A stretch of 64,000 bases of DNA, taken from a virus. Positions 10,366 through 26,802 of the stretch are shown in pieces. Below the pieces are notes generated by a model, which saw only the letters and a list, made by a program, of their open reading frames with translations, ran no database searches and was not told the origin of the DNA. The stretch is from positions 29,825 to 93,824 of IMG/VR virus record IMGVR_UViG_3300025941_000001; one strand, 5' to 3'. The translations under genes were made by a program, and so were the position numbers. How positions within the stretch are numbered: position 1 is the stretch's first letter; the number at the start of each line of letters is the position of its first letter.

Positions 10366-10380
10366 GACATTCGACGCCTC

Positions 10381-10417: not shown

Positions 10418-10450
10418 GGTTCACGCTAATTCACGCTATTCGCGGGAGCC

Positions 10451-11548
10451 TTAGCTCTCGCGGGTGATCAGGCGAGCCAGCTTGATCTGCTTGCGCTCCG
10501 GGAACACTCGGACCCACGAGTTGGAATGGGCGAGGTTGTTCGTGGTCGCGGCGTTGGTCGGGCCACCTTCGGTCGCCGGGCTGCCGACGTAGGCATGACC
10601 GACCGGATGGATACACCACTCGACGCGGTTGTAGAGCGTATCGCTGCCCGCGCCGTTACCACGGTCCGGGTTGCGGAAGACTTCGGTCGGGACGATGGGC
10701 GTACCCACGCCGAGACGGAACGAGGCAGGGCCGACCAGCCACGTATGGTAGATGCCTGCGGCGGTCTGCGCGCCGTTGGAAGCATCGCCCGCCGGGTTGG
10801 GCATACCGTCGTCCACGATCACGCGGCGGCCGAGGAAGGTCGGAATGTTGACCTTGCCTTCGCTATCCGGGATGAAGTCGATCAGGTTGTTCTTCTGGGC
10901 GGTGGAGTACACGATGGAGTGCATGAACACTGCCGTCACGTCCTCGGCCGCGTCGCCGAGCAGGGTCGCGGTGTCGATGAACGCCGACGCCGAGAAGTTG
11001 GTCACGCCAGCCGTGAAGCTGGAGCCCTTGATATCGTGGGTCAGGTCGTTCTGATGACCGTAGGCGGCATTGATGCCAAGCTGGCCGGAGCGACCGAGGG
11101 TCGGGTCGGCAAGCGCGTTGTTGGCGAAGATGCCGTTGGCGACCGCGACGAACGCACGCTGCAACCGGCGGACCCAGTAGTCGGACACGCGGCTCGCGAT
11201 GCTCTGCATCGGGTCGGACCCGGCCAGAGCGGTCGCCAGACGCATCGTGCTCCACGAGGCGTTACGGCTCAGACGAACCGCGACTTCGGCGGAGGTCTGG
11301 GTGATGTTCGGGGTCGAAGACGTGTTCGGGTCATCGCTCGACACGTTCTCGGCGGGGTCGCCGATGTCCTGCCAAGACGGGACCGTGAAGGTCAGGCCGC
11401 CGCCAGCGAGCAGGTTGTCGAGGAAGTCATCACGCGCGGCGACGCCGCTCTGGATGATCGCGGTCTTCTCCATCGTCAACTGTTGGGTATACGGCGTGAA
11501 GACGGCGGGGACGATAACGTCGCTGATCTGGGTGGACACGTTGACCAT
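10451..11548 (-). CDS. Major capsid protein
   Basis: Start MVNVSTQISDVIVPAVF at 11548 with GGAG RBS; coat-protein motifs (VSDYWVRR, FMHSIVY, PTFLGRRVIVDD, CIHPVG); followed by a strong terminator. Confidence 0.92.
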   Translation of the reverse strand: MVNVSTQISDVIVPAVFTPYTQQLTMEKTAIIQSGVAARDDFLDNLLAGGGLTFTVPSWQDIGDPAENVSSDDPNTSSTPNITQTSAEVAVRLSRNASWSTMRLATALAGSDPMQSIASRVSDYWVRRLQRAFVAVANGIFANNALADPTLGRSGQLGINAAYGHQNDLTHDIKGSSFTAGVTNFSASAFIDTATLLGDAAEDVTAVFMHSIVYSTAQKNNLIDFIPDSEGKVNIPTFLGRRVIVDDGMPNPAGDASNGAQTAAGIYHTWLVGPASFRLGVGTPIVPTEVFRNPDRGNGAGSDTLYNRVEWCIHPVGHAYVGSPATEGGPTNAATTNNLAHSNSWVRVFPERKQIKLARLITRES

Positions 11549-11676
11549 GATAATCTCCGATGGCTTGTGGGGTGGAAGCTTTTTCAAGCACCTCCCCATG
11601 GAGGTATCTTGGCTGATGCTGATGGGGTCACGACTGCCCTGCATAGGGGCGCGAAGCCATTGCAAATTCTGGCGTG

Positions 11677-12247: not shown

Positions 12248-14350
12248 TTAACTGTCGAGGTAGCGGTACGAGTACCACTTACCGCTACCCGGCGTGCCCA
12301 GTAAGCCGCCGAGAATTGATTGACCGAAGCCTTGAAGGTTCATCACGATTGGCCCTTCGATAATAAGCTCGGCGTCCACGATATTTCCGAAGCCGCCTTG
12401 CTCGGTCTGGCCGAGGTTCGTGACGATGGTGCCGGAGAAAGTCTCTTCTCCGACCGCCGCAAAACTGGCGGGCGACAGGTTTGTGACAATAGGTCCGAAG
12501 ATAGCTGCCTCAAACGCGTCCACGCGTTGCGAGATGCCGCTGAGCACGGTGTTGACCGAGCCGACGATGATCTCCGCTTCAACGGCCAACTGACTGATGC
12601 CGGACAACGCTGTCGTTACATTGCCCGAGACCGAATAGATCGACGAGCCGTTGAGCGTTTGACCGATACCCGACAGCGTAGTTTGGATCGTGCCAGTGAA
12701 ACTCAGACTTGTCGATGAACCCGAAAGGCTTTGACTGATCTTGGTCAAGTTCGTCGCGATGGTGCCACTCGCGCCAGCCGTTTGCGTCCCGGACAGCGAT
12801 TGACTTGCGCCTGTCAGTGTCGTCGTGATTGTGCCCGACGAGTTCTGCGAGAAGTTGGCCGTGCCATTGGTGTCGCCCGACAGCGCGTCCGTGGACAACG
12901 TCCATTCGAGCGTGCTGTTCGTAGCCCACGTTTGCGTGCCAGAGCCCGATTGCGGGGCGGTCGTCCAAGCCAGTGCGTTCTGGCATGGCCCCGTCGTGCT
13001 GTTGCCAGTGGTGATGTGAGCGCTGCCGAACGTGTACCCGGCCGGTGCGCTACTGACATTCGTATTGCCCGTGGCCCCGTATTGACAGAGAAGGCCGAGC
13101 ACAAGATCGCTCGCCGACGAGAGCGCCCATGTCTTGCTCGGGAGCGTCGGAGTGAAGGCGTTGTCGTAGGTCGAATAGAGCCCGAGCGCCGTGTTCACGT
13201 CCCATGGTGCAGTCGGGGTCATCGACCCGATGAACGTGGCCCATGTAGTAAGCGTTCCGGAGGCTTGGTTCGCGGTGTTGGACAGCGCGATGCTGACCGT
13301 CACGTTGGAGCCGTGCGCGGCAGTTACGTTGGCCCACCAAACTTCTTGCGTGACGAACTCGACCCCGTTGCTCAAACCTTGGAATGGCGTGGCATCAAAT
13401 TGGAGTGCGCTGCGCCTGTGCCACGTATGGCCCGCGCTATCTGTGACGCCCGTGATCGGAACGTAGCCGAGGCCCACGCCGCCTTGCGTCAGGATATTAG
13501 CGACGATGATGCACGGGGCCGTATTCGTGAACGTGAACGTGGCGGGCGAGCCGGTGCCCGAGTTATTGTTGCCTGACGACAGGTTGCGAAGGTTCGCGAG
13601 ATCAATTGTCCCTGCGCTGGCCGACGAGCCGGTCGAAGTGCCGGAAAGCGCATCGCCCGTGAAGATGAACGATTGCTTCGTCTGAGTAGCCGCCAGCGTC
13701 GCAGTGCCCGCCGTGGCCTGCGTTTTGCTTTCGAAAAACATATGGAATTGGTTCGGCGACGTGCCGTTTGTTTGGTTGTTTTGCGCTGTCATACCCGTGC
13801 CAGCGGCGGATAAGGTCGAGTTGTTCGTCGAAGTCACTTCCGAGAGTAGCGCAATGAACTCGGAGTTGTTCTGAGACGTAGTCGCGCTCAGCGTGATCGC
13901 CGCCAGTGTAGACACTGGGTCGCCATAAGTCTGAGCCGAAGTGAGCAGGCCGGAGTTCGTATCCCATGGCGCGGAGGGCGTCGTGCTGCCCGTGATGCAT
14001 TGATAGAGGAACTGATACTCGACGCAAGCGCCATTGTTCGTGAGATTGAACGTGAGATTGCGGTTGGTCGAAGACACATCGTTCTTCCACCAAATTTCCT
14101 GCACGATGTAGTTCGCGTTCGCCGTGCTGCCAGCGCCCAGCCATGCCGATTGGAAGCGCACGCGCTTGCGGAGGTTCCACGTGCCGCCCGACGCATCCGT
14201 GATGCTGGACGTAGACGTGAACGAGCCGTTCGAATAGTACGAGATGAACATGATCGACACGCCGTTGGCATTGTTGACAATGCCTGCGGTGATCGTTGAG
14301 CCCGGAGTTGCGCCGGAGCCGTTCGAACTATTTGCATACGCGAGTGCCAT
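12248..14350 (-). CDS. Fibre/spike-like protein with a duplicated domain and C-terminal repeats
   Basis: 700 aa, Thr/Ser/Gly-rich. Two copies of TD-x-x-G-x-TW...QE[IV]WW...APWD-x-N...DALSG, then SGTIxTxLxGISQ-type repeats. Confidence 0.7.
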   Translation of the reverse strand: MALAYANSSNGSGATPGSTITAGIVNNANGVSIMFISYYSNGSFTSTSSITDASGGTWNLRKRVRFQSAWLGAGSTANANYIVQEIWWKNDVSSTNRNLTFNLTNNGACVEYQFLYQCITGSTTPSAPWDTNSGLLTSAQTYGDPVSTLAAITLSATTSQNNSEFIALLSEVTSTNNSTLSAAGTGMTAQNNQTNGTSPNQFHMFFESKTQATAGTATLAATQTKQSFIFTGDALSGTSTGSSASAGTIDLANLRNLSSGNNNSGTGSPATFTFTNTAPCIIVANILTQGGVGLGYVPITGVTDSAGHTWHRRSALQFDATPFQGLSNGVEFVTQEVWWANVTAAHGSNVTVSIALSNTANQASGTLTTWATFIGSMTPTAPWDVNTALGLYSTYDNAFTPTLPSKTWALSSASDLVLGLLCQYGATGNTNVSSAPAGYTFGSAHITTGNSTTGPCQNALAWTTAPQSGSGTQTWATNSTLEWTLSTDALSGDTNGTANFSQNSSGTITTTLTGASQSLSGTQTAGASGTIATNLTKISQSLSGSSTSLSFTGTIQTTLSGIGQTLNGSSIYSVSGNVTTALSGISQLAVEAEIIVGSVNTVLSGISQRVDAFEAAIFGPIVTNLSPASFAAVGEETFSGTIVTNLGQTEQGGFGNIVDAELIIEGPIVMNLQGFGQSILGGLLGTPGSGKWYSYRYLDS

Positions 14351-15132: not shown

Positions 15133-15996
15133 TTACGCCGCGTCAGCGGCGGGCTTAGTTGCGCCGATAAACGACCCGGCTTGCGCCGCGATCTCGCCAG
15201 CTTTCACTTCGCCAAGCTGACGCACGAGCGCGCCCTGCTTGGTCATGTTCCAGCCTGCCTTCGACCATGGGTTGTTCGACCCGCCGTAAGTGCCCTTCGG
15301 TCCGCCGCCTCCGCCGGAGCCGCCGCCGACCGATGCAGGCCACCAATGCGGTGCCTTCTCGACCATGTCGCGGAGCCATTCCTTGGGGGTCAGGCCCGGG
15401 ACGGTGCCGGGGACATCCTTGGTGATGATGCGCCCGTCCTCGGTCTTCTCGAAGATGCGGGAGCCGCGCAGAACCACGTCGTCGAGGGCGGTGACTTGCA
15501 CCTTCTCGGCCACGGCAGCATCACGGACAGTGCGCTCGATGCTGTCCATGGTGATGGAGCCTTTGAGGTTGGTGACTTCGCCATCCTTCTCCATGACGAG
15601 CTTTTTCTGTGCGTCGAGTTGACGCTCCAGATTGGACTTGTCGCGCTCCAGCGGAGCGACAGCCTGCTTGACGCGGGCCGCGATGATCGGCTCAAGCTTC
15701 TCTTGGTCGAGGTGACCATCCTTGTTGATGGCTTCGAGTTGAGCCTTCACAGTTTCAAGCTCGTTGGCCTGAGCGTGGAAAGCCTCGGCGTCAACGCCAT
15801 CGAACGAAGCGAGTGCGGTCTTCGTCGCCTTGTGGTCGGCCTTTTCCTTGCGGAGGGCTTCCTGCACGCGCTCGACATCCGCTTGCGTCTTCACGCCTTG
15901 GATGCCGGTCAACTCCCACTTGCCGTTGCGTTCCGTATAGAGGTCCGCATAGCCCTCCGGAATGTCTTCGGCGGTATCATAGATTGTCTTCAACAT
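15133..15996 (-). CDS. Capsid scaffolding protein
   Basis: 287 aa coiled coil, PHWWP-Gly linker-NPW...WNMTKQG tail, located between portal and capsid. Confidence 0.85.
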   Translation of the reverse strand: MLKTIYDTAEDIPEGYADLYTERNGKWELTGIQGVKTQADVERVQEALRKEKADHKATKTALASFDGVDAEAFHAQANELETVKAQLEAINKDGHLDQEKLEPIIAARVKQAVAPLERDKSNLERQLDAQKKLVMEKDGEVTNLKGSITMDSIERTVRDAAVAEKVQVTALDDVVLRGSRIFEKTEDGRIITKDVPGTVPGLTPKEWLRDMVEKAPHWWPASVGGGSGGGGGPKGTYGGSNNPWSKAGWNMTKQGALVRQLGEVKAGEIAAQAGSFIGATKPAADAA

Positions 15997-16025: not shown

Positions 16026-16367
16026 TCATTCCGATGAGGACCCGGCCATCCGGGATTTGCGTTTGTGGAGCAATCCTTTGCCGAGGCGAAGGATATGCTG
16101 CCGGGTGATCTCCGTCGCGCCGTTGGCTCCGTTCAAGCGACGAGAACCGATGACGCGATGGGCGATATCAGTGTTGTCCTCGCCAGCGGTGAGGCCAACA
16201 CTAATTGCGGTATGGATGCGCTCGGCATCCTGAGCAGCGATGTTGCGCGCCCAGTGCGCAAGCTCGTGCCCGTGTATCTTGAGCACCTTCTTTTTGCCGG
16301 TGCGGAAGCGATGCTTGTCCCACGCGCCGCCGTCGTGCTCGTGATCTCCAATCTCTGGGTCGCTCAT
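16026..16367 (-). CDS. Short MuF/gp7-like minor head protein (fragment-sized)
   Basis: HGHELAHWA...RIHTAISVGLTAGEDNTDIAHRVIG...GATEITR resembles the head morphogenesis protein core. Confidence 0.5.
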   Translation of the reverse strand: MSDPEIGDHEHDGGAWDKHRFRTGKKKVLKIHGHELAHWARNIAAQDAERIHTAISVGLTAGEDNTDIAHRVIGSRRLNGANGATEITRQHILRLGKGLLHKRKSRMAGSSSE

Positions 16368-17353
16368 TTGCGTCCCTCATTCTCGGTCCAGTCCGGCATC
16401 AGCCCGATCTTCTGCGGCGCGAAGACCGTGTGCTCGGCGTCGGCGGTTCGGTTAGTTGCGCCGTGCGGGCCGTAGTTGACCCATGAGTTCTGTCCGCGCG
16501 TCTCCGATGTCATCGCTTTGCGCGCGAGGTCCGAATACATCGAGGCGTGAGAGCGCCAAGCGTTCTCTTCTCCCTCGGCGCGAAAACCATTGCCTTCTTT
16601 CAAGTGCCCCATCATGTCGTGCACGATGCGGAAAACGTCGTTGACGACCACGTGCCTGCCGTCGATCACTTCGCCGGTCGGCCGGAGCATCGGGTTCGTC
16701 TCGGCCTTGTCGTTGCTCTTGTCGGTCTTGTTGCCGTAGCCGAGGTCCGTGGGAAAGCCCCACCAATGATTGTTCTCGCTCACATCCATCGCCGCGAGAC
16801 GCGGCGAGAGCGCATAGGGGTCCTTCTGTCCGGGCTTGACCCACTCGACCTTGAGCCCGGTCTGCTTGATCACGTCCCACTGAGCGAGCGTCTCTTTCGC
16901 CATCGCCTCGTAGCTGGCCTTGACCTCGGGGTTGTTCGGGTCATCCTTCATCTTGTCGTATTCGTCGGCGATCTTCGCGGCGCGCTCTTTGTCGAGCTTC
17001 GCGTACTCGGTCGGCGGCGAGTACGGCATCCCGGCCTTGTCCATGTAGGCCTTCGCCGCGTCGCGGAGCCGACCGATGGGACCGGGGACGTACCACTGAT
17101 CGCCCAGTTGAATAGGCTTTTGCGGCAGTCCGACGAGCGGCTTCGCGCCCGCTGCAACTTTCTCCGCCTGCGCCTGCGCTTCCTCGGGCGTGCTCGCGCC
17201 CGCGTGCGCGGCCGGACCGATGGGTCGCTGTTCCGGCGGGTGCATCGGCTGTTGCGTGACAGCCGCGCTCGCTGCCGCTACGCCCTTGAGCGGAACGTCT
17301 TGCGTGCCGAACTCGCCGTGGTTGTTGCGAGCCTGTGCGGGGTTATATGTCAC
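16364..17353 (-). CDS. Hypothetical head-region protein with HDxxGH motif
   Basis: 329 aa; NDVFRIVHDMMGH...GF...GEENAW...SETRGQNSW; N-terminus YNPAQARNNHGEFG. Confidence 0.75.
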   Translation of the reverse strand: MTYNPAQARNNHGEFGTQDVPLKGVAAASAAVTQQPMHPPEQRPIGPAAHAGASTPEEAQAQAEKVAAGAKPLVGLPQKPIQLGDQWYVPGPIGRLRDAAKAYMDKAGMPYSPPTEYAKLDKERAAKIADEYDKMKDDPNNPEVKASYEAMAKETLAQWDVIKQTGLKVEWVKPGQKDPYALSPRLAAMDVSENNHWWGFPTDLGYGNKTDKSNDKAETNPMLRPTGEVIDGRHVVVNDVFRIVHDMMGHLKEGNGFRAEGEENAWRSHASMYSDLARKAMTSETRGQNSWVNYGPHGATNRTADAEHTVFAPQKIGLMPDWTENEGRK

Positions 17354-17594
17354 TGGGCAGATGCTCTCTCAAATGGCGAAACGCCGCCTTGATGTGATGA
17401 TGGCGGAGCGCAACGATCTTTTTCGTCAACTCGTCTCGGGTCAGCATGGCATCGCTGACCTTTGTTCGATTGACGCCCGCCACGTCCATCAAGTTCGTCT
17501 CGATGAGGTCGCGAATTTGCGGTTCGCAACCATCAAGGATGTCGATGGCCTCGTGAAAGGTCTTTACGATGTGCGCTCCGGCCGGATCACTCAT
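17343..17594 (-). CDS. Hypothetical protein
   Basis: 83 aa coupled to the portal stop. Confidence 0.55.
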   Translation of the reverse strand: MSDPAGAHIVKTFHEAIDILDGCEPQIRDLIETNLMDVAGVNRTKVSDAMLTRDELTKKIVALRHHHIKAAFRHLREHLPSDI

Positions 17595-19306
17595 GCGCCG
17601 CCTTTGGTCTTCCCGGCCGACGCGCCCTTCTTGCCGACCTTGCGCTTCAACGGAACAGGTGACCCACGCGTATGGCCCTTTGGACTTTGACTGTTCGGTT
17701 TGATCGGAACGTTCGAATTGGGAGGCGCAGTCGATGCAGGCCCAGCCGGAGGTGCAGTACCGGCGGGAGGTGCAGTGGCTCCGGGCGTGCCCGCAGCCGG
17801 ATCAGAGATAGGGTCGTTGCCCTCATCCAAGAATGTATCATCGGTGACAGACTGTTGGAACGGCCCAACCATCGTGCCGAGCATCGACGCGGCTTCCTCT
17901 TCGATCTGTGCGTTCTCTTCTTCAAAATCCATCTCCGTCATGTCGTTAAGCTTCATCATGCGGTGCATAGAACGAAGAGACAGGGGCAGGCCCAGTTGCT
18001 TCGCTTGCATGAAGGCAAGCAGAGCAGCGCCAGCGACAGTCTGATCGGCGAAGTCGGTCGTCGGTTTGACACTGACTTCATCCGGGTCTTCTCCAACCCA
18101 CTCGGCCGCGTACTTGAGCGCTCGCTCAAGCCCGGCTCCGGCGGCCTTCGCCACGGACGAGATCGTGGTCGTGCGCGCCGCCAGTCGAATGCGGAGCGCC
18201 TCGCCGCTCTGGCCAGTGTCAGTGCCGACATCCAAAAACGCGTTGCCCTCTTGGGCCGCGCGCATCTTGTCGTTCTCCAGCGATTGACGCATCTCGCCGA
18301 GACCGGCGGCCGAAACGCCGATGTACTTCGCGTCGCCGCCGATGCGGAGGTCGATCACGCCCTTGTTGCCGACGCGCAGAGTGTTGGGCGCGGCTTCATC
18401 GACGTTGCCGCCGATGATGACGAGGGTGTTCTGGCCCTGCAAGTAGAGCGTCTGCCGGTAGTCGGCTTCGCCGCGATAGATCGCGAGCGACAGGTTCGAC
18501 AGGCCGAGCAATGGGGAAATCTCGGGCTCGGGCACGAGATCGTTCGCGCCGATGAAGACGAACGGGATTTCGTCGAGCGTCTTGCCCGCGATGCTAGGAT
18601 AGATGAAATCCGTGAGTTGCGGCATGTTCGTGTCATTGACCTTTACGGCGACGCCGAACGGCGCGCCCGGGGGCGGACGCTCCCATCCGCTATCAAGCTC
18701 CGCCTGTCCGCCACGAGTGAGGACGCGGTACTTGCGCTCGGTCTTCCACGTGAAGCCCTCACGCCGATAGCCGCTCTCGTCGAGCACGACGAGTTCAAGC
18801 TCTTGCATGCCTTCGTCCAGTTTCCCCGCGTCCCAGTTGATGATGCGCTCGGGATTGTAGAACGAAATGTAGGGAGTTGCCTTGTCGGCATCGACGCCCT
18901 GCGGCGTATCGACAAGCAGGCCGCAGCGCCCGTAGACGAGTTGCGCGACGTTGATCCTGCGGAGCAACGCTTGCAAACCTTCGCCCTGCACGGTCGCCTT
19001 CGTCATCATGTCTTCGAGTTTCTTCGGCAGCACGATCTCGGCGGGCTTGTTGTGCATGATGCCGACCATGGCTTTGACGGCATCCTTGACCACGTCATGG
19101 TAGTAGGCGCGCAACAGATACGCCTCGTAGTCTTTCCAGCCGGGGGAGGTCGGCGTCGTCATCCCGTCCTGCACCATGCCCTCGGTCGCCGGGAGATAAT
19201 CGAGACGCTTCGATTTCACCGCGCGCTCGCCCGCGTAGGTGTCGCTCATCTGTATCCATTCGCCGAGCCGCTCGACGTATTCGGGATGCTTGTCCGGGAG
19301 TGCCAT
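17591..19306 (-). CDS. Portal protein (DUF4055 type)
   Basis: HPEY...YLP...YEAYLLRA...GRCGLLVD...IINW...IPFVFIG...SGEALRIR; follows TerL. Confidence 0.92.
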   Translation of the reverse strand: MALPDKHPEYVERLGEWIQMSDTYAGERAVKSKRLDYLPATEGMVQDGMTTPTSPGWKDYEAYLLRAYYHDVVKDAVKAMVGIMHNKPAEIVLPKKLEDMMTKATVQGEGLQALLRRINVAQLVYGRCGLLVDTPQGVDADKATPYISFYNPERIINWDAGKLDEGMQELELVVLDESGYRREGFTWKTERKYRVLTRGGQAELDSGWERPPPGAPFGVAVKVNDTNMPQLTDFIYPSIAGKTLDEIPFVFIGANDLVPEPEISPLLGLSNLSLAIYRGEADYRQTLYLQGQNTLVIIGGNVDEAAPNTLRVGNKGVIDLRIGGDAKYIGVSAAGLGEMRQSLENDKMRAAQEGNAFLDVGTDTGQSGEALRIRLAARTTTISSVAKAAGAGLERALKYAAEWVGEDPDEVSVKPTTDFADQTVAGAALLAFMQAKQLGLPLSLRSMHRMMKLNDMTEMDFEEENAQIEEEAASMLGTMVGPFQQSVTDDTFLDEGNDPISDPAAGTPGATAPPAGTAPPAGPASTAPPNSNVPIKPNSQSPKGHTRGSPVPLKRKVGKKGASAGKTKGGA

Positions 19307-19375: not shown

Positions 19376-20971
19376 TTAAGCGCCTGTGCGTCCGGACTTC
19401 ATAGTCCGAACCTCGAAGCGGAGCATGTATCGCGTTTCGTCGCCGTTATGATCTTCGCTCTCGTCGTCAACGTCGTCGATCTTCAACTCGTCACGCGGGA
19501 GGACAGGGACGCAACGAAGCCATTGAGGGCATTCGGTGGTGATGAACAGGCCGGGCGTTTCCCGGAAGCCGCCCGGGGGCCGCTTGGTCGCCTTGAGGGC
19601 TTTACGGATTTGCTCCCATCCCTGCTCACGCGAGCCCGCGCCCTTGTCGGCGCGTTCCCAGAAAATGCCGCGATGCTTGACGCCGTTGATCGTGACCGGC
19701 TTCTCGAAGTCGTTCGCGATGGTGACCTCGGAGCCGTTCGTGTTGTCGTCGAAGATTTGCGTGTCGGCCGGGCCGCGCGAGACGCGGGTCCACGATGCAT
19801 CGGCTGCGCGCAGGCCCCACTTGATCTCGCGCTCGATGATGCCCTTCGCGATGTCGGGGATGAGCATGCGCGAGCCTTCGTTCGCGACGCCGCGCCAGCC
19901 GTACCATTCCTTGAACCGAAACTTGTCGCCGCGCAGGGTCGAGCGCACGCGTCCATCGCGAAGCTTGAGATCGGTGCCGTCGCTGACAGCGTACCAGCCG
20001 ACCGAGAACGGCTTCGACGAACCGTGGTCGTATGCGCGATAGATTTTCCAGCCCGCCGGAATGTCGAACGGCTCCATGACGACCGTGTCGCGATATTCAT
20101 ACCAGATGTCGTCGAACATGCCGCCCGCGACGATGTCCCACGACCCATCGAGCCACGCTGCCTTTTCCGATGCGTTGCGCGCAGCGGCGGCGATACGGCC
20201 TTTGTACTCGGGGTCGGCGTGCAAGAGCAATTGGTTCTCGTCGAGATACCCGTGGATGGCGCGACGCGGCGGTTCCTTGTTGCCCTCGGCGTCAATATCT
20301 CCGACGATGAGCGGACCGACGCACGGACGCGTGCCGTTCGGCCCCATCTCGCCGTTGATCGGCAGCCGCCAGCGCGCCTTGACCCAGTTGTGGCCGACGC
20401 CGTATGGGTTCGTCGTCGCACGGATTTTGCGCGGCATGCCCTTGATGGTCGAACGCGAGCACGAGAACATGCTCTTGTAGCAATCCGGGTTCGGCCAGTT
20501 GGTCAACTCTTCCCAACCAATCCACGGATAAGCGTGGCCGTGGTAGTTGTCGTAGTCGCTGCGAACGTTGAAGTGCGCGAAGTAGAGACGCTCGCCCGTG
20601 GGCCACTCCCACATCGTCTTCACTTCGTTGTAAATCGCATCGGGCCAGATGCGCTTGATCCATTTCTTCGACTTCTCGATGATGTCGCGCAACTGCGGAT
20701 GGGTCTGACGGAAGAGGATGCCTTTCCATTCCGCGCCGTGGCCTTTACCGATCTCTTGACAGAAATCCATGATGAGCGCGTCGGTCTTGCCCGGGCCGCG
20801 CGTACCCTCGTAGAGAACCTCGACAGTCGGATCAGCGAGAAAGAACGTTTGCGAGCCGGGTTGGGGAGCCCAAGCGACTTGCTTCAACACGCCGTTAGCG
20901 TCCCGCACATACGGGACGTACTCGCCGTTGATCGACTTGAAAGTCTCGACTGATCCGGTAAGCTCAAACAT
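19376..20971 (-). CDS. terL: Terminase large subunit
   Basis: Walker A YEGTRGPGKT, Walker B WIGWEE, ATTNPYG, nuclease acids in YDHG and EDHNGDE. Confidence 0.95.
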   Translation of the reverse strand: MFELTGSVETFKSINGEYVPYVRDANGVLKQVAWAPQPGSQTFFLADPTVEVLYEGTRGPGKTDALIMDFCQEIGKGHGAEWKGILFRQTHPQLRDIIEKSKKWIKRIWPDAIYNEVKTMWEWPTGERLYFAHFNVRSDYDNYHGHAYPWIGWEELTNWPNPDCYKSMFSCSRSTIKGMPRKIRATTNPYGVGHNWVKARWRLPINGEMGPNGTRPCVGPLIVGDIDAEGNKEPPRRAIHGYLDENQLLLHADPEYKGRIAAAARNASEKAAWLDGSWDIVAGGMFDDIWYEYRDTVVMEPFDIPAGWKIYRAYDHGSSKPFSVGWYAVSDGTDLKLRDGRVRSTLRGDKFRFKEWYGWRGVANEGSRMLIPDIAKGIIEREIKWGLRAADASWTRVSRGPADTQIFDDNTNGSEVTIANDFEKPVTINGVKHRGIFWERADKGAGSREQGWEQIRKALKATKRPPGGFRETPGLFITTECPQWLRCVPVLPRDELKIDDVDDESEDHNGDETRYMLRFEVRTMKSGRTGA

Positions 20972-21788
20972 CGTCGTCGCCGCCCTCTTCGAATGTCACG
21001 GTCGGACGCCCGGTCTTGCGGTAGTTGCTCTCGATTTCGTTGAGGTCGGTAGCCGCAATCGTTCGCATCGGGACCACGAGCACGCCGCCGCGCACGTTGA
21101 CATCGACGCTGGCCTTGTTGCCATAGGTCTTCGACATGCGGGTCTTGAGGATGAACATCGCAAGGTCCGGGTCCATCTTGTAGACAGTCTCCGGAACGGG
21201 AGCGCCGAACTCGTCGGTGAGATAGTTATCCGGGACAAGCTCGGGCAAGCCGAGATCGCGCGCATCCGCGAGCTTCTTTGGGTCGTACTTGTATTGCACA
21301 CGTCCCTGATAGACGAGCGTCTCGTCGTAGCCGGTCGCGCGCTTGATCGTCGCAGCCTCGACCTTCTGGACGCCCGCCTCCATGGCGATGTCCCACGCTT
21401 CATGGAAGCGCACGGTGTTGTCGTCGGTGCCATTCTCGTCGTCGTCGCCCATGACGATGTCGAAGCCATCCCCCGGTGCGCCTTCGAATGATTTCTGGAG
21501 CCAATATTTCAACGTCGTGTAGTTGATGCCGAGCCGACGCGCGACATCAGCGCCGACCGGCATTTCGGTCGCGTAGCTCAGCGCACGGTTGAGGCGTTCG
21601 GGGGTGTTCTTGCGGGCTGCGCGATTGACAGGGTAAGATCGCGAGCGCTCTAGGACGGCTTTGCCTGATCGGTCGAGGGGCACTGCGCCGTCAAGTAGGT
21701 TCTCTTCGGGCTCGGCGACCGGGTCGGGGCCAAGCATCTCATCAAGCTCTTTGTCGCCGCTCATGCGGTGGTTCCTCTCAGTATTCAC
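20964..21788 (-). CDS. terS: Terminase small subunit
   Basis: Immediately upstream of TerL; HTH plus FHEAWDIA...VEAATIKRATGY...LAMFILK...YG. True start may be MSGDK. Confidence 0.75.
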   Translation of the reverse strand: MNTERNHRMSGDKELDEMLGPDPVAEPEENLLDGAVPLDRSGKAVLERSRSYPVNRAARKNTPERLNRALSYATEMPVGADVARRLGINYTTLKYWLQKSFEGAPGDGFDIVMGDDDENGTDDNTVRFHEAWDIAMEAGVQKVEAATIKRATGYDETLVYQGRVQYKYDPKKLADARDLGLPELVPDNYLTDEFGAPVPETVYKMDPDLAMFILKTRMSKTYGNKASVDVNVRGGVLVVPMRTIAATDLNEIESNYRKTGRPTVTFEEGGDDDV

Positions 21789-22261: not shown

Positions 22262-22582
22262 TCACCTCTGATAGTTGCCGCCCATGGCGCGCTTGGTCGC
22301 GGCCCTGACGTTGTTCGTCGGGAAACTGATCTTGCTGTCGCGCGCCTTCATGCCGGGGTGCGTCGTGATCGGCGTCTGATCGACCTTGCGGGTCTGCCAG
22401 TCGCCAGCATCGGCACTCGGGTCCGCCGGGAGACCATAGTCGCGATCCATGCGCGTGCTCTGGCCGGGAAGGTCGCTCGACGGTCCCTGATAGCCGTTCT
22501 GGCCGTAGCCATTCTTGGCCTTCTGCTTGGAACCTATGAGGGCGTCGGAGCCCGCAGCTTGAGCGTCAATTGGGTCGGTCAT
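22262..22582 (-). CDS. Small disordered late protein
   Basis: 106 aa, Gly/Gln/Asp-rich, AAGGA RBS. Confidence 0.7.
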   Translation of the reverse strand: MTDPIDAQAAGSDALIGSKQKAKNGYGQNGYQGPSSDLPGQSTRMDRDYGLPADPSADAGDWQTRKVDQTPITTHPGMKARDSKISFPTNNVRAATKRAMGGNYQR

Positions 22583-22600: not shown

Positions 22601-22945
22601 TTAGCGGCCGAGGTTCGACGCCTCGGTGAGCACAGCATGGCCGAGGTTGCCGTTGACCGACTGGCCGTTGGCGTCCTTCATGCCCCACTTCGCGGGCGCG
22701 TCCGGAAACTTCTTGAGCTTCGGCGACGGGCTCAGCGGGTTCGCCGGGTCCGCGTCGGGGCCGACGCCGGGATTGGCCGGGCTCACGCCCGCCATCTCAG
22801 CGGTGCGGTCGCGCATGCCATACGTGGTCGGGAATTTCGTCTGGGGCCGCTTTGCAGCGCCATCGCGCGCAATGTTGGTGTTGGTCAGGTCCTTCATGCC
22901 TTGCTTGGCAGGGGCCGCAGTGCCGCCGTTCGTCTGATACGCCAT
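22601..22945 (-). CDS. Small disordered late protein
   Basis: 114 aa with repeated GM[KR]D; GAGGA RBS; upstream promoter motif. Confidence 0.7.
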   Translation of the reverse strand: MAYQTNGGTAAPAKQGMKDLTNTNIARDGAAKRPQTKFPTTYGMRDRTAEMAGVSPANPGVGPDADPANPLSPSPKLKKFPDAPAKWGMKDANGQSVNGNLGHAVLTEASNLGR

Positions 22946-23225: not shown

Positions 23226-23675
23226 TTACTCCCCCGTGCCGCCTGTCCGGATTTCTTTTCCATGCTTGACATCCCAGATGGCGATTTGGTTGTGCTTGCG
23301 GCCAGTGTTGACGGCCTCACGCTTGCTTCTGATGTTGTGGGATACGTCGAGATATGTTTTGCCGGTTTCCTTGTCGGTCCAGCCGCCGATGTGCGCTCGT
23401 GGATCACGCAACACGTCGGCGTGCGCGTTGGCATATTGCGAGATGATTTCGTGGCCCTGCGGACCGCTCAGCGCCTTCTCGGAAACGATTTGCGTGTGGC
23501 CGGGTATCGAAACCATAAAGCCGTTCGACGGCATGCGCCCGTTCGTCGGTCGAACCGAGAAGCCGCCGGGGTTGCCGGTGACAGTCTTGATCACGCTGGG
23601 ATGGAGCGGGAGCTTGCCGATTTTGGCGACGCCCGAGTTGTGGGCGTTGGAGCCGTGGCCGAGTGCGTCTTTCAT
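23226..23675 (-). CDS. MKDALGHGS-leader protein 8
   Basis: Leader plus a folded domain GGWTDKETGKTYLDVS...NQIAIWD. Confidence 0.85.
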   Translation of the reverse strand: MKDALGHGSNAHNSGVAKIGKLPLHPSVIKTVTGNPGGFSVRPTNGRMPSNGFMVSIPGHTQIVSEKALSGPQGHEIISQYANAHADVLRDPRAHIGGWTDKETGKTYLDVSHNIRSKREAVNTGRKHNQIAIWDVKHGKEIRTGGTGE

Positions 23676-23676
23676 G

Positions 23677-24009
23677 TCAGAGCCATTTCGATTTCTTGAT
23701 GGGATGTTCGTTGCCTTGGTAACGTTTGCGCGCCTCGCGCTCGTCGATCAGCGAGCGGAGGTGCGCGGTATTGGCGCGATACTCATCGAAGATCGGATGG
23801 CCGGTCATTTGCATGATCTCGTTGCCCTTGACCATGCCGTGACCCATGTCGATGAGCTTGCTGTTGATCTCGCTGCTCTTCGCCTGCGCCTTCTCATACG
23901 CCTTGAGCAGGGCAGCACGCGGCAACTCCGAAATAGGTTTCGGCTTGCGCGGCAACGTCTCGATGCCAGTGTTGTGCGCGTTGGAGCCGTGACCGAGCGC
24001 GTCCTTCAT
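23677..24009 (-). CDS. MKDALGHGS-leader protein 7
   Basis: MKDALGHGSNAH start. Confidence 0.85.
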   Translation of the reverse strand: MKDALGHGSNAHNTGIETLPRKPKPISELPRAALLKAYEKAQAKSSEINSKLIDMGHGMVKGNEIMQMTGHPIFDEYRANTAHLRSLIDEREARKRYQGNEHPIKKSKWL

Positions 24010-24296
24010 TTGAACCCCCGACGAGCGTCGCGATCTGTCTTCATCTCTTTCTTGAAATTCTTGACCATGAACCCATTGTGATCTCGGAGCGCGGAGACAG
24101 CCCGATCAAGATTGGCCTTCTCCATCCGGTATTCGGTTGAGGTTCTGATGTGCTCCGGCGGCAGCCCCAAGGGGCCTCTTGGGTACTTATCCATGGCACG
24201 AGCATGCTGCTCAACGGTCGCGGTCAGGCCCGCGTTGTGCGCGCGATGGAATGCATAGTCATGGGCATTGCTGCCGTGGCCGAGAGCGTCCTTCAT
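24006..24296 (-). CDS. MKDALGHGS-leader protein 6
   Basis: MKDALGHGSNAH start, ATGA overlap. Confidence 0.85.
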   Translation of the reverse strand: MKDALGHGSNAHDYAFHRAHNAGLTATVEQHARAMDKYPRGPLGLPPEHIRTSTEYRMEKANLDRAVSALRDHNGFMVKNFKKEMKTDRDARRGFK

Positions 24297-24529
24297 TTGA
24301 TCCTCACACGCGAGTTGGGATTGTCAACGCGATGAAACTGGGCGATCTTCTCGGCGACAGCGCGACGGCGCGAGCCGCCGACCTTCTGCCAGATGTTGCC
24401 CGAGGTCGTGACCTTCTGCCCGGCCGCCGTGACGCCGTGGAAAGCGATGTGCTTCTCGACCTTGAACTGATGGCGCGGCGACTTGAAAGCTCCGCGTCCG
24501 TTGCTGCCGTGTCCGAGTGGGTCTTTCAT
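24293..24529 (-). CDS. MKDPLGHGS-leader protein 5
   Basis: Variant leader, ATGA overlap. Confidence 0.8.
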   Translation of the reverse strand: MKDPLGHGSNGRGAFKSPRHQFKVEKHIAFHGVTAAGQKVTTSGNIWQKVGGSRRRAVAEKIAQFHRVDNPNSRVRIK

Positions 24530-24765
24530 GGCGTCCTCTTCATGCTGTTATAGCCCCGCTCCCACTCCGCCGCAAGTGCCCCGTCATTTGGGGTTAACAA
24601 TTCGTTGTGCGGGTTCTCCGCCGGACGCCCGAGCCGCCGGGCCTCGCGTCCCTTGTAGAAGGCGATCTCCAGCGGGGACATGGACGGCGTCGGCGTGAAC
24701 TTCGAATGCGGCACCAAAATGGAAACGCCGACCGAGTGGGTCGGCTTTGGAAATCGTTGGGCCAT
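24526..24765 (-). CDS. Hypothetical protein without leader, inside the array
   Basis: 79 aa coupled on both sides. Confidence 0.6.
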   Translation of the reverse strand: MAQRFPKPTHSVGVSILVPHSKFTPTPSMSPLEIAFYKGREARRLGRPAENPHNELLTPNDGALAAEWERGYNSMKRTP

Positions 24766-25253
24766 TAGCGCCCCTTGAGCAGCCGGTGGATTGCACTTGC
24801 TTCCTTACCGCCGATACGCCGCCCGCTGCGGTTCGACGAAGCAATGGCCTTGTTGACCGCGTCGGGGCTGTAACCATGACGACCGAGCGTGCTGTCCGGA
24901 GACGGGTTGCTCGGCCGCATGGTCGGGCCTGTGCCCTTCGACGCACCGTAATCGTGCATGCTGTCGTGGATTGGGGCCGGTGCCGACTTCGGTCCGCTCG
25001 CGAGCGAGGCCTTTGCGTCCTGATCGGCGTAGCGCTGCAACTGGAACTGGGCGGTCGCGTGAGCGTCGGCGATGTCGTCCGTGTGACTGTCGGCCTTCGA
25101 TTGATAGACGCCGTTGTGGAAAAATTTAACGACCTTCTCGCCCCACTCCGGGTTGTTGTAGACCTTCGCCGAGTGCGGTCCGTTGACATGCGTCTTGATC
25201 AGACGCATTCCCCTCGTGCCCGTGTCGCTGCCGTGGCCCTTTGCGTCCTTCAT
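24765..25253 (-). CDS. MKDAKGHGS-leader protein 4
   Basis: Variant leader; contains SGPKSAPAPIHDSM. Confidence 0.85.
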   Translation of the reverse strand: MKDAKGHGSDTGTRGMRLIKTHVNGPHSAKVYNNPEWGEKVVKFFHNGVYQSKADSHTDDIADAHATAQFQLQRYADQDAKASLASGPKSAPAPIHDSMHDYGASKGTGPTMRPSNPSPDSTLGRHGYSPDAVNKAIASSNRSGRRIGGKEASAIHRLLKGR

Positions 25254-25322
25254 GATCAGTCCTCGTTGTTGAGATCGCCCGCAGACAACGAGCCATGGTA
25301 GCGTGTAGCCGCTGCGCTCTTG

Positions 25323-25796
25323 TCACTTGTTGTGATACCGGATATCGAACCCGTGTTGGTATGAGGTGGACACGCTCCGAGCTTTTGGATGCTTCGCGAA
25401 AGCCTCGGCTGCCGCCGCTTCGCGAGTGGCGTGCGGGCCGTACTCGCCGAGCTTGGAGCCGTTCTTCGACGAGACCCGAGCATATAGCGGGCGAACGCCG
25501 CTCGCTACCATGCTGTCGTGCGTCGGAGCCGGGTCCGATTTCGGGGTGCCGCTGTGAAGCTGATCCGCTGGCGCGTCCGACTTGCCGCCGCGCGCCCGAT
25601 ACGCGAGCACGGTCGAGGCGTCGTTGACTTGGTCCGCGTACTTGTTGATGCCGCGCTGATCGCCCATCTCTTGCGCGTTGCGACCGGCCTCGTGAGCATC
25701 CCGTTGGATGTAACGAAGCTCATCGTTCGTCTTCGCGTGATAGGCGTGACCCGGAATTGGTCGCGCGTTGGAGCCGTGTCCCAGTGCGTCCTTCAT
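25323..25796 (-). CDS. MKDALGHGS-leader protein 3
   Basis: Leader; contains SGTPKSDPAPTHDSM. Confidence 0.85.
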   Translation of the reverse strand: MKDALGHGSNARPIPGHAYHAKTNDELRYIQRDAHEAGRNAQEMGDQRGINKYADQVNDASTVLAYRARGGKSDAPADQLHSGTPKSDPAPTHDSMVASGVRPLYARVSSKNGSKLGEYGPHATREAAAAEAFAKHPKARSVSTSYQHGFDIRYHNK

Positions 25797-26203
25797 GACT
25801 TGAACTTTCCAAGACCGCCTGCGAAGTGTCCGCCATTGAACCGAGGCGCGGGCGACTTCTTGGTGCTCATGGTCATCCCGGTGTTGGATGACGCTGCACG
25901 ATACTTGCCCAGTTGCTTCGAGGTGTTGATTTTGGTGATCTCGCGCGTGGACTTGTTCTTGTAGCTCGTGTTCGGCTGCGATGCCTTCACGAACAGGTCG
26001 CGTCGAAATCCCGGATTGGTCGTTGCAAGGTGATTGGCCATGGCCTCGACGCGAGCGTCGTGCCCGGCCGGATCATTGACAGCCTTGGAGCGGAGGTCGG
26101 CGGCGATCTGCTCGAAGTGACGCCGACCGAGCTTGGCCGGGAGCGCCTTGATCATCGCCGAATGAACTCCGGCGTCGGAGCCGTGGCCGAGTGCGTCTTT
26201 CAT
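25793..26203 (-). CDS. MKDALGHGS-leader protein 2
   Basis: Leader; basic protein. Confidence 0.85.
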   Translation of the reverse strand: MKDALGHGSDAGVHSAMIKALPAKLGRRHFEQIAADLRSKAVNDPAGHDARVEAMANHLATTNPGFRRDLFVKASQPNTSYKNKSTREITKINTSKQLGKYRAASSNTGMTMSTKKSPAPRFNGGHFAGGLGKFKS

Positions 26204-26206
26204 GGT

Positions 26207-26482
26207 TCACATTCCTTTGCGGCCGACTTCGCCATTGCGAATGCGCGTGACGAGGTTGCGATTGTACTCGCGTTCTGGAGATCGATCATTCCACGTCTGG
26301 AGCGGGGCCTTGATCATCGTTTTGCCCATCGCGCTCATGAGCGCTGCGCTTGCCGAGGCGTTCGACGACTGCGGGATGCCGCCGCCCTTGAGCGAGGTCA
26401 CGTGCGTCAATCGCGCCCTGAGCGCATCGAGCATTGCGCCGTCGCCGGAGCCGTTGCTCCCGTGGCCGAGTGCATCCTTCAT
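26207..26482 (-). CDS. MKDALGHGS-leader protein 1
   Basis: Leader; GGAG RBS. Confidence 0.85.
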   Translation of the reverse strand: MKDALGHGSNGSGDGAMLDALRARLTHVTSLKGGGIPQSSNASASAALMSAMGKTMIKAPLQTWNDRSPEREYNRNLVTRIRNGEVGRKGM

Positions 26483-26494
26483 CGGAGGGCTCCG

Positions 26495-26734
26495 TCAGAC
26501 GTTGTGGTAGGTGCTGTCGTGCTTGCCGAGAACGGCGTCGGCCTTGTGCCTGATCTTCGCGGCCTGCTCGGGGGACAGCTTGCCTTTCGCGACCATCTGG
26601 GTCGCACGGGCCTTGGCGTTCGCGGCATGCGATGGGTCGTTGACCGGGTACTTCCCGGGCTGGCCCTTCTTGCCGGGCAGCGCGAATTTTCCCTTGGGCA
26701 GCGCGTTGCGTTTCTTGGCTGTGAGTTTGGCCAT
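26495..26734 (-). CDS. Small basic protein resembling DUF6582
   Basis: Start at ATG 26734 with GGAGG RBS: MAKLTAKKRNALPKGKFALPG...KYPVNDPSHAANAKARA. Confidence 0.75.
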   Translation of the reverse strand: MAKLTAKKRNALPKGKFALPGKKGQPGKYPVNDPSHAANAKARATQMVAKGKLSPEQAAKIRHKADAVLGKHDSTYHNV

Positions 26735-26766: not shown

Positions 26767-26802
26767 AGATTATCCCAGACGAGACCCCGGGGCAACTAGC
26801 AA
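26767..26802 (-). promoter_or_regulatory. Putative late promoter GCTAG-TTGCCC-N17-TAATCT driving the leader array
   Basis: Same architecture is seen near 7851, 11703, 15119 and 23011. Confidence 0.6.

What the first reader, a model, noticed from the sequence alone, without database searches (positions are those of the whole stretch)
23226..26482. Array of eight mostly unrelated small proteins sharing an N-terminal MKDALGHGS tag: candidate capsid-loading/injection signal system
Seen: eight translationally coupled genes (starts 26482, 26203, 25796, 25253, 24529, 24296, 24009, 23675) begin MKD[AP][LK]GHGS[ND] and then largely diverge. The leader DNA varies at synonymous sites (AAA/AAG, GCA/GCG/GCT, GGC/GGT/GGA, Ser as both TCC and AGC), so selection acts on the peptide rather than on a DNA repeat. 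The array sits just upstream of terS/terL, behind the same promoter motif as the capsid gene, and the products are small and basic. Established: T4 internal proteins use a shared ~10-aa N-terminal capsid-targeting sequence and are injected with the DNA (IPI* blocks GmrSD). Inference: this is a modular tag-plus-cargo system that loads diverse effectors, possibly anti-defence, into the head. No prohead protease is visible, so the tag may not be cleaved.
Basis: partly seen in the sequence, partly recalled or inferred. Interest (0 to 1): 0.95.

Follow-up and report, generated by a model that had tools for sequence, protein, structure and literature searches.

The report
Shared leader peptide on phage cargo proteins
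Eight small, basic, late phage genes next to the DNA-packaging genes all start with the same nine residues (MKDALGHGS). The same peptide follows T4-type capsid-targeting leaders and joins the modules of giant head-associated effector proteins in other phages, so it is most likely an undescribed leader for proteins the virus carries in its particle and delivers to the host.

Summary
Exactly eight co-oriented, mostly overlapping ORFs (window 23226-26482, minus strand) begin M-K-D-[AP]-[LK]-G-H-G-S-[ND]. None occurs elsewhere in the complete 93.8-kb phage genome, and 0 are expected by chance.

Selection acts on the peptide: every Gly codon and both Ser codon families are used. The array recurs at the same position (p79 - array - p114 - p106 - terS - terL - portal) in about 25 uncultivated relatives, with 3-11 tagged genes and at least 28 cargo families. 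A profile search finds 362 protein clusters.

New findings:
- The box also occurs internally, 2-4 times, in 265-1707-aa multidomain proteins, often just after an XkdF/DUF2213 prohead-protease-like domain.
- It occurs directly after T4-CTS-like leaders in T4-like phages that encode a gp21-type protease.
- Cargo domains include ART-PolyVal, zincin-like proteins, and a fold found in a T7-like internal virion protein.
- Tagged proteins are basic (median pI 10).
- The tag is disordered ahead of a folded domain.

Best reading: an unbundled polyvalent-protein arsenal whose KD box marks virion-packaged cargo. Whether the box docks, processes or ejects is unresolved. An earlier follow-up in this scan reached the same reading on another genome.

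The parts
26769..26802 (-). Late promoter-like element (TTGCTAGTTG, 18 nt, GATAAT) heading the array operon
   Evidence: the CTAGTTG core occurs only 5 times in the 94-kb genome. Four copies precede the array operon, the p114/terS operon, the capsid gene and the adaptor gene (the fifth, at 31816, was not examined), and a variant precedes the scaffold gene.
26495..26734 (-). Untagged 79-aa first gene of the operon (p79, phrog_16160), conserved at the head of every related array
   Evidence: phrog_16160, E 2.9e-22; synteny in about 20 loci.
26207..26482 (-). Tagged gene 1, 91 aa, pI 10.6
25793..26203 (-). Tagged gene 2, 136 aa, pI 10.6; cargo family with ...LQRRHFE.IAA.L... found in 12 loci
25323..25796 (-). 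Tagged gene 3, 157 aa; carries the second motif (...SG.PKS..AP.HDSM) at about 25509-25562
24765..25253 (-). Tagged gene 4, 162 aa; N-terminal domain matches phrog_7884; second motif at about 24957-25010
   Evidence: (E 2.6e-14).
24526..24765 (-). Untagged ribosome-modulation-factor-like gene inside the array
   Evidence: Pfam RMF, 29.3 bits against a cut-off of 27.9; conserved in related arrays.
24293..24529 (-). Tagged gene 5, 78 aa, pI 11.8; the most widely conserved small cargo (11 loci)
24006..24296 (-). Tagged gene 6, 96 aa; cargo matches phrog_7560; untagged homologues lie in early-type regions of T4-like phages
23677..24009 (-). Tagged gene 7, 110 aa
23226..23675 (-). Tagged gene 8, 149 aa; residues 1-18 disordered, the rest a confident alpha/beta domain. 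The same domain forms the C-terminal part of phrog_3170, lies inside Synechococcus phage P60 gp34 (internal virion protein), and occurs in large multidomain phage proteins
22601..22945 (-). p114: conserved low-complexity protein that always follows the array, with three conserved GM[KRT]D motifs
22262..22582 (-). p106: second conserved low-complexity protein between the array and terS
20964..21788 (-). Small terminase subunit
19376..20971 (-). Large terminase subunit
17591..19306 (-). Portal protein
   Evidence: phrog_145, E 2e-108.
16364..17353 (-). Post-portal 329-aa protein matching the N-terminal part of phrog_3170; carries a different conserved N-terminal leader (M-T-Y-N-P-x-Q-x-R-N-N-H-G-E-F)
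15133..15996 (-). Head scaffolding protein (no protease domain)
   Evidence: phrog_206, E 1.7e-37.
10451..11665 (-). Major capsid protein
   Evidence: phrog_247, E 1.7e-100.

Best explanation
The eight genes are an 'unbundled polyvalent protein'. They form a set of small, basic accessory or effector domains made late together with the head. These domains are carried inside the virion and delivered to the next host with the DNA. Each carries the same flexible N-terminal leader, the 'KD box' K-D-A-x-G-H-G-S-[NDE], often followed by H-x-x-G-[VI]-x-x-[VI]-G-K. The KD box acts at or next to the mature N-terminus of a head-internal protein. In this phage, which has a scaffold and no detectable protease, it is the only shared element. 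It most likely serves as the short linear motif by which cargo is recruited to or retained in the procapsid, a functional analogue of the T4 capsid-targeting sequence that is not removed. In phages that have a prohead protease, the same box lies immediately downstream of the cut site (after a T4-CTS-like peptide or a hydrophobic-x-x-hydrophobic-hydrophobic-K/E-A/E junction). There, processing exposes it. Shown: the motif, peptide-level selection on it, its lineage-wide synteny, its three contexts, the cargo domain families, the basic charge, and the disorder of the leader. Inferred: late expression (from the promoter motif), packaging, the docking role, delivery to the host, and any anti-defence activity. 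The confidence given (0.5) is for the full statement including the docking role; that the eight proteins are virion cargo at all I put at about 0.7.
For: Motif, chance level and peptide-level selection are set out under the observation check. (1) Conserved system: 32 IMG/VR stretches from about 25 contigs carry arrays of 3-11 tagged genes at the same place, all co-oriented with terS/terL/portal. There are at least 28 cargo clusters among 106 unique cargos. The profile search gives 362 clusters at E<=1e-3, and 132 of the 149 listed carry the box at the N-terminus. (2) Virion association. The operon shares the promoter-like motif of the capsid, scaffold and adaptor genes. Stray tagged genes lie directly after the portal (L001) and after the tape-measure gene (G001, G004). 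The cargo-8 domain is embedded in P60 gp34 'internal virion protein' and is fused to a p329-like protein among the head genes of mycobacteriophage Rizal. BFVD matches include 800-1100-aa Zeta-toxin/XkdF proteins. (3) Effector-type cargos: ART-PolyVal above the gathering score in L011, L022 and L024; HEIGH zincin-like cargos in L007 and L008. (4) In T4-like records that encode an S77 gp21-type protease, the box follows N-termini such as MKSF..YL.EA, which resemble the T4 CTS MKTYQEFIAE (PMC8442874). (5) Internal boxes lie after XkdF/DUF2213 domains (P0123, L102, L068) and next to MuF and Acb1+ART proteins. (6) Homologues without the box lie in early or replication regions of cultured T4-like phages. 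This fits functions needed early, which here are pre-made. (7) Tagged proteins have a median pI of 10.0 against 6.6 for other small ORFs (p=1e-16), like the basic T4 internal proteins. (8) AF2: residues 1-18 have pLDDT below 50 and the rest above 85. (9) Nine of 119 cargo-8 homologues replace the box with other N-terminal leaders, which indicates modular leaders.
Against: There is no direct evidence of packaging. No cultured relative carries the tag, so no virion proteome exists. In T4-like phages a separate CTS-like peptide precedes the box, and neighbouring CTS-like genes lack it, so the box is not needed for CTS-type targeting there. The box is identical in phages that share no detectable protein. 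That is hard to reconcile with docking on fast-evolving structural proteins, and it hints at a universal partner (a host factor, DNA, a conserved fold feature) or intrinsic chemistry. Its invariant residues are polar or glycine (K, D, G, H, G, S), unlike typical hydrophobic docking peptides. Its position after protease domains fits a cleavage-site role equally well. In G009 the tagged genes sit in the replication region, not in a structural operon.
Confidence: 0.5

Rival explanations
1. Processing-junction element. The KD box is the primed (downstream) side of a prohead-protease cleavage site in polyvalent polyproteins. In this phage the domains became separate genes, and the box is kept because an unrecognised phage or host protease still trims or recognises it, or because it has a secondary role.
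For: There are 2-4 internal boxes per protein in 13 large proteins, preceded by a conserved hydrophobic-x-x-hydrophobic-hydrophobic-[KE]-[AE] segment. The first box comes immediately after XkdF or DUF2213 domains in P0123, L102 and L068. In T4-like phages the box follows L/I-x-E-type sites and an S77 protease is present.
Against: The complete genome has no match to six prohead-protease families, and there is nothing upstream of the box except Met. Yet K, D, G, H, G and S are invariant in more than 100 free-standing genes. A pure cleavage site would decay once the genes are separate.
Confidence: 0.2
2. Ejection or host-side leader. The box is not needed for loading. It acts after maturation, either as the flexible N-terminal end that is threaded first through portal and tail, or as a short motif that binds a conserved host factor once the proteins are in the new cell.
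For: The box always lies at, or within 1-2 residues of, the predicted mature N-terminus. It is identical across phages with no shared proteins, which favours a universal partner. It is optional on CTS-like proteins of G009. The leader is disordered and glycine-rich.
Against: No known precedent exists for an ejection signal, and no candidate host partner was identified. The hosts of the lineages differ widely (GC 39% against 61%).
Confidence: 0.15
3. Not virion cargo. The eight are ordinary late cytoplasmic accessory proteins, and the shared N-terminus serves expression, stability or recognition by a common modifying enzyme or chaperone in the producing cell.
For: No packaging data exist. An untagged RMF-like gene sits in the same operon. 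The tagged DUF6267 and cytidylyltransferase genes of T4-like phages sit in a replication region. A lysine codon at position 2 is generally favourable for initiation (general knowledge).
Against: An expression-level role does not explain invariant D, G, H, G, S with free synonymous change. It also does not explain internal copies in polyproteins, the link to CTS-like leaders and prohead-protease domains, or the cargo families shared with internal virion and polyvalent proteins.
Confidence: 0.1
4. DNA-level repeat. The shared 27 nt is a recombination or regulatory sequence, or an assembly artefact.
For: The copies sit at identical positions relative to the start codons.
Against: Third-codon positions vary freely, and Ser is encoded by both AGY and TCN. 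The upstream DNA is not conserved. The motif is found in about 100 independent contigs with GC from 39 to 65%.
Confidence: 0.02

Closest known systems
T4 internal proteins (IPI, IPII, IPIII, Alt) with the capsid-targeting sequence MKTYQEFIAE, and the hypervariable ip loci of T-even phages (PMC8442874, PMC3012670, PMC12373910)
   Same: Unrelated small basic proteins share only a roughly 10-residue N-terminal leader. The cargo sets vary between related phages, and an ART occurs among the cargos. The concept is the same: pre-made proteins injected with the DNA, some of them anti-restriction.
   Different: The leader sequence is unrelated. No gp21-type protease exists here, so the leader is probably not removed. 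The phage is a siphovirus-type with a separate scaffold. In T4-like metagenomic phages the KD box comes after a CTS-like peptide, so it is a distinct element.
Polyvalent proteins of phages and conjugative elements (Iyer et al. 2017, PMC5512222)
   Same: The domain repertoire overlaps (ART-PolyVal, zincin peptidases, MuF/XkdF/Zeta-toxin neighbours). The genes lie beside head genes, and delivery with the DNA is the predicted role. The KD box joins modules inside such giant proteins.
   Different: Here each module is a separate gene of 78-162 aa. The paper text I searched does not mention this junction or leader motif ('linker' occurs 0 times).
MuF/SPP1 gp7-family head proteins with C-terminal toxin or effector domains
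   Same: Both give effectors a ride in the capsid. The genes lie next to the portal. The cargo-8 domain is fused to a post-portal protein family in other phages (phrog_3170).
   Different: The eight proteins have no MuF domain. If there is an attachment, it would be non-covalent, through the leader.
Phage P1 Dar antirestriction system (DarA, DarB, Hdf, Ulx, DdrA/B)
   Same: Several head-internal anti-defence proteins are loaded during head morphogenesis.
   Different: There is no sequence relation, P1 proteins are large, and no common leader is known to me.
Encapsulin cargo-loading peptides and the C-terminal targeting tail of the HK97 prohead protease
   Same: A short conserved terminal peptide loads diverse cargo into an HK97-fold shell, and the peptides are conserved across very divergent shells.
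   Different: Those peptides are mostly C-terminal and hydrophobic. The resemblance of L-G-H-G-S to the encapsulin G-S-L-x-I-G-S-L type rests on my memory only and was not tested. Position 5 (L) of the KD box is variable.

Membership tests
T4-type capsid-targeting sequence / internal proteins | N-terminal decapeptide of the MKTYQEFIAE type | tested here: not met
   The window leaders read MKDALGHGSN. CTS-like peptides occur only in T4-like records, upstream of the box. The T4 CTS sequence is taken from PMC8442874.
T4-type capsid-targeting sequence / internal proteins | Removal of the leader by a gp21-type (S77) prohead protease at L/I-x-E | tested here: not met
   No S77, S78, S78_2, DUF2213, S49 or ClpP match in the complete genome. 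No L/I-x-E follows the leader.
T4-type capsid-targeting sequence / internal proteins | Leader-dependent incorporation into the prohead and injection with the DNA | not testable with these tools
   This needs virion proteomics or reporter fusions.
T4-type capsid-targeting sequence / internal proteins | Small, highly basic, mutually unrelated proteins in a variable locus | tested here: met
   pI 9.5-11.8; median pI 10.0 against 6.6; at least 28 cargo clusters, and array content varies between relatives.
Polyvalent proteins (Iyer et al. 2017) | 2-15 effector domains in one polypeptide | tested here: not met
   The eight window proteins have one or two modules each. Large proteins with internal KD boxes exist elsewhere.
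Polyvalent proteins (Iyer et al. 2017) | Domain families characteristic of polyvalent proteins | tested here: met
   ART-PolyVal above the gathering score in three tagged cargos of relatives. The cargo-8 fold occurs in Zeta-toxin/XkdF multidomain phage proteins. For the window's own other seven cargos no such family was found.
Polyvalent proteins (Iyer et al. 2017) | Genomic association with virion (portal, MuF, head) genes | tested here: met
MuF-family effector carriers | Phage_Mu_F domain in the protein | tested here: not met
   No Pfam match in any of the eight. A MuF domain is found only in a neighbouring 1201-aa protein of L068.
Ribosome modulation factor (untagged gene in the array) | Pfam RMF match above the gathering score | tested here: met
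   29.3 bits against a cut-off of 27.9, E 8.8e-7. Function not tested.

The most novel reading that the evidence does not exclude
The KD box is a portable, lineage-independent N-terminal 'cargo leader' recognised by a structurally conserved feature of tailed-phage heads (the HK97-fold shell interior or the portal). It would be an encapsulin-like cargo-loading system operating in true viruses, from T4-like myoviruses to siphoviruses. Under this reading the roughly 10-25-residue leader alone suffices to load, and perhaps eject, any protein, and the 362+ tagged clusters form a ready-made catalogue of injected effectors and anti-defence proteins.
Probability: 0.2. Interest if true: 0.9.

Novelty: new variant of a known kind. 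Interest (0 to 1): 0.8.

Why it matters
If the KD box marks virion-delivered proteins, it gives a simple sequence handle for finding injected phage proteins in metagenomes. That would include hundreds of clusters of unknown function, which are the class most likely to hold first-strike anti-defence factors, and they come from phages that have never been cultured. It would also show that the T4 internal-protein strategy and the 'polyvalent protein' strategy are two packagings of one modular system: separate genes against polyproteins, with or without protease. It would offer a short tag for loading foreign proteins into phage particles that have no maturation protease. The identity of the box across phages with no other shared protein raises a well-posed question about what conserved partner reads it.

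Tried and rejected
- Co-folding of capsid protein, scaffold and tagged protein 8 gave no verdict (score 0.00). This is not evidence either way. The portal, p113 and p329 could not be tested because only one job was allowed.
- AF2 of p329 with a 4-row alignment gave pLDDT 42 and was unusable.
- Foldseek against the PDB found no match for the cargo-8 domain.
- The search for homologous proteins with 'longer' lengths found no fused forms by shared words. Fused forms were found by PHROG, tblastn and BFVD instead.
- The search for related loci for P0123 and P0127 in IMG/VR found nothing.
- No cultured phage carries the tag on cargos 4, 5 or 8.
- No paper mentions the motif.
- The HExxH in p113 (16026-16367) was considered as a hidden protease and rejected, because it is not conserved in the L012 orthologue.
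- tblastn of the window proteome against the T4-like record G009 gave no shared gene that could encode a common receptor.
- The idea that the KD box is a variant of the other N-terminal leader ([RH]-[DN]-x-x-G-x-[WF]) rests on pattern similarity only. It was not supported at the junctions of P60 gp34 or Rizal gp102.


Full report
**What is there**

The window is the larger part of a complete 93,824-bp phage genome with terminal overlap, GC 61%. On the minus strand between 26482 and 23226 lie eight ORFs of 78-162 aa that begin M-K-D-[AP]-[LK]-G-H-G-S-[ND].
- The whole genome holds no other copy.
- The degenerate DNA pattern gives 8 hits against 0.00 expected in shuffles.
- The genes overlap by 1 or 4 nt or are 1-3 nt apart, apart from one 69-nt gap.
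- An untagged ribosome-modulation-factor-like gene (24526-24765; Pfam RMF just above its cut-off) is embedded in the array.
- An untagged 79-aa gene (26495-26734, phrog_16160) heads the operon.
- Downstream follow two conserved low-complexity proteins (p114, p106), then terS, terL, portal, an 83-aa ORF, a 329-aa protein, a 113-aa MuF-like fragment, scaffold, and further on the capsid gene.

A promoter-like element (TTGCTAGTTG, 18 nt, GATAAT) precedes the array operon. Its CTAGTTG core occurs only five times in the genome. The other copies examined precede the p114/terS operon, the capsid gene and the head-tail adaptor gene, and a variant precedes the scaffold gene. Late co-expression with the head genes is an inference from this.

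**Selection is on the peptide**

In 103 unique leaders from this and related phages, Lys2 uses AAA and AAG. Gly6 and Gly8 use all four codons. Ser9 is AGY in 88 and TCN in 15. K, D, G, H, G and S never change. Only Ser9 is free of ascertainment bias. The DNA upstream of the start codons is not conserved beyond a ribosome-binding site.

**A conserved system in an uncultivated phage clade**

- The exact back-translated pattern hits 32 IMG/VR stretches from about 25 contigs.
- A six-frame scan yields 132 tagged ORFs.
- In every locus with enough context the order is p127 - p79 - [3-8 tagged genes, usually with the RMF-like gene] - p114 - p106 - terS - terL - portal, all co-oriented. terL identity to the window ranges from 63 to 100%.
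- Whole records hold 5-11 tagged genes and none in the reversed-pattern control.
- A few tagged genes lie elsewhere, always in structural modules: directly after the portal (L001), or after the tape-measure gene next to tail-tip genes (G001, G004).
- Only one bacterial genome out of 185,579 species carries the pattern, an alphaproteobacterial MAG with a single tagged gene near a terL.
- Cargos fall into at least 28 clusters.
- A profile of the first 36 residues finds 362 clusters among 1.84 billion representatives. Of the 149 listed, 132 carry the box at the N-terminus.

**What the cargos are**

The window's cargos have no Pfam family. Three match PHROGs of unknown function that lack the leader.

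Cargo 8:
- It has 119 homologues. 110 of them are tagged, and the other nine carry different N-terminal leaders.
- Its AF2 model is confident from residue 20 onward (pLDDT 85-96), with residues 1-18 disordered.
- The fold has no PDB match, but it matches many phage proteins, including 800-1100-aa proteins labelled Zeta toxin or XkdF.
- By sequence it lies inside the 1640-aa 'internal virion protein' gp34 of Synechococcus phage P60.
- It forms the C-terminal part of phrog_3170. The N-terminal part of that family is homologous to the window's post-portal p329, and its mycobacteriophage member sits among head genes.

In relatives, tagged cargos include three ART-PolyVal ADP-ribosyltransferases above the gathering score and HEIGH zincin-like proteins.

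Cargo 6 has untagged homologues in early-type regions of T4-like phages.

Tagged proteins are strikingly basic, with median pI 10.0 against 6.6 for other small ORFs of this genome (p=1e-16). The T4 internal proteins are also basic (PMC8442874).

**The box is not only an N-terminal tag**

The top profile hits are large proteins (265-1707 aa) with 2-4 internal copies of [AE]-K-D-[AP]-x-G-H-G-S-[NDE]. These copies are 100-500 residues apart, are not preceded by Met, and each follows a hydrophobic-x-x-hydrophobic-hydrophobic-[KE]-[AE] segment such as ...EFVAKE or ...DFIAKE.
- In P0123 the first box follows a Peptidase_S78_2 (XkdF) domain by six residues.
- A second IMG/VR scan found 82 further stretches.
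- In L102, an XkdF-domain protein carries a box and a 124-aa C-terminal module. It lies next to a 695-aa Acb1 + ADP-ribosyltransferase protein.
- In L068, a DUF2213 protein carries a box and a 260-aa module, next to a 1201-aa MuF protein.
- One cargo of the window's clade is homologous to the module that follows an internal box in P0143.

**The box after T4-like targeting peptides**

In a further lineage the box follows N-termini such as MKSFLTYLKEE, MKSFKGYLLEA and MITFKELFEA. These resemble the experimentally defined T4 capsid-targeting sequence MKTYQEFIAE (PMC8442874).
- The two near-complete records of this lineage encode a gp21-type S77 prohead protease.
- In the complete 160-kb record G009, four neighbouring genes have CTS-like N-termini. 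Two of them, a DUF6267 ligase-like protein and a cytidylyltransferase, continue with the KD box.
- Their homologues in cultured cyanophages and a pelagiphage lack both elements.
- Cleavage at the T4-type L/I-x-E site would leave the box one residue from the new N-terminus. This is an inference.

**Interpretation**

All three contexts place the box at, or next to, the mature or predicted-mature N-terminus of proteins whose domain content, neighbours or leaders point to the inside of the phage head. The window's array is therefore best read as the modules of a polyvalent protein encoded as separate genes. I put the odds that these proteins are virion cargo at roughly 0.7.

What the box itself does is less certain.
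- This genome has no detectable prohead protease and nothing upstream of the box except Met. Even so, the box is under strict purifying selection, so it cannot be a mere cleavage site.
- Docking or retention in the procapsid is the simplest role (about 0.45-0.5).
- Three points argue for caution: the box is optional on CTS-like proteins, it is chemically polar, and it is identical in phages that share no detectable protein.
- These points keep alive a processing-site role, an ejection or threading role, and a host-directed role.

**Comparison and novelty**

Functionally, the closest system is the T-even internal-protein loci. There, unrelated small basic proteins share only a leader, and Ip1-3 inhibit Type IV restriction enzymes (PMC12373910). 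By domain content, the closest is the polyvalent proteins of Iyer et al. (PMC5512222).
- The leader is not a member of the T4 CTS family: the sequence and protease tests were not met.
- The eight proteins are not themselves polyvalent.
- I found no Pfam family, PHROG annotation or paper that describes the motif.
- An earlier follow-up in this scan (e1-3265086) reached the same general reading on a seven-gene array in another genome. The present work confirms it independently.
- New here are the CTS-plus-box context, the adjacency to protease domains, the charge statistics, the promoter class, the alternative leaders and the stray tagged genes in tail modules.

**Limits**

- No expression or proteome data exist.
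- The functions of seven of the eight cargos remain unknown.

Noticed in passing
window 24526-24765 (-): An untagged ribosome-modulation-factor-like gene (Pfam RMF, 29.3 bits) sits in the middle of the tagged array and is conserved there in most related phages. A phage RMF could silence host ribosomes.
   Followed up: partly
window ~25509-25562 and ~24957-25010 (-); 17 of 108 unique tagged proteins in loci L003-L027: A second short linear motif, A-x-x-L-x-S-G-x-K-S-x-x-[AV]-P-x-H-[DS]-[SA]-M, lies between an N-terminal domain and a C-terminal extension in otherwise unrelated cargos. In some proteins it follows the KD box directly. Function unknown (a second docking or processing site?).
   Followed up: partly
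window 22601-22945 and 22262-22582 (-): Two conserved low-complexity proteins (p114, p106) always lie between the array and terS and have no Pfam or PHROG family. p114 has three conserved G-M-[KRT]-D motifs, and the third reads W-G-M-K-D-A-N-G, which is reminiscent of the tag.
   Followed up: partly
window 16364-17353 (-); L012:6884-9298 and 9729-10754; proteins P0096, P0100, P0102, P0103: A different conserved N-terminal leader, M-x-[FY]-[DN]-P-x-[QE]-x-R-[DN]-x-x-G-x-[WF], heads the post-portal proteins (one of them with an HEIAH zincin motif). It replaces the KD box on four cargo-8 homologues. A third leader (MWSDESRKAALEARRAKG) occurs on three others.
   Followed up: partly
G009 (loci L116-L117) 103970-110155: A complete 160-kb T4-like metagenomic phage has four adjacent genes with T4-CTS-like N-termini (for example MKNYRELIKE), encoding DUF6267 ligase-like and cytidylyltransferase-like enzymes. 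This suggests nucleotide-modifying enzymes packaged in the head.
   Followed up: partly
L102:8042-10126 (-): A 695-aa protein combines an anti-CBASS Acb1 domain with an ADP-ribosyltransferase exoenzyme domain. It lies directly upstream of an XkdF protease-KD box-cargo gene.
   Followed up: no
window 12248-14350 (-): A 700-aa Ser/Thr/Asn/Gly-rich ORF with internal repeats lies between the scaffold and capsid genes. It is variable among relatives and may be a head fibre or decoration protein (other notes of the scan mention a glycosylation cassette).
   Followed up: no
L034:6760-7014 and L035 (alphaproteobacterial MAG, two contigs): Two near-identical copies of a single 83-aa tagged gene lie about 2.5 kb from a terL homologue (45-47% identity). 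They are the only hits in 185,579 species genomes. Probably prophages or GTA-like elements.
   Followed up: no
L042:2-439 and L079:1741-4041 (197-kb viral contig): Proteins beside the KD-box polyproteins start with ...KF.V.HHDDKGRF... or ...KFVESEHPRVPAG..GGGEF.... These are further recurrent N-terminal leader types in polyvalent-protein-rich phages.
   Followed up: no
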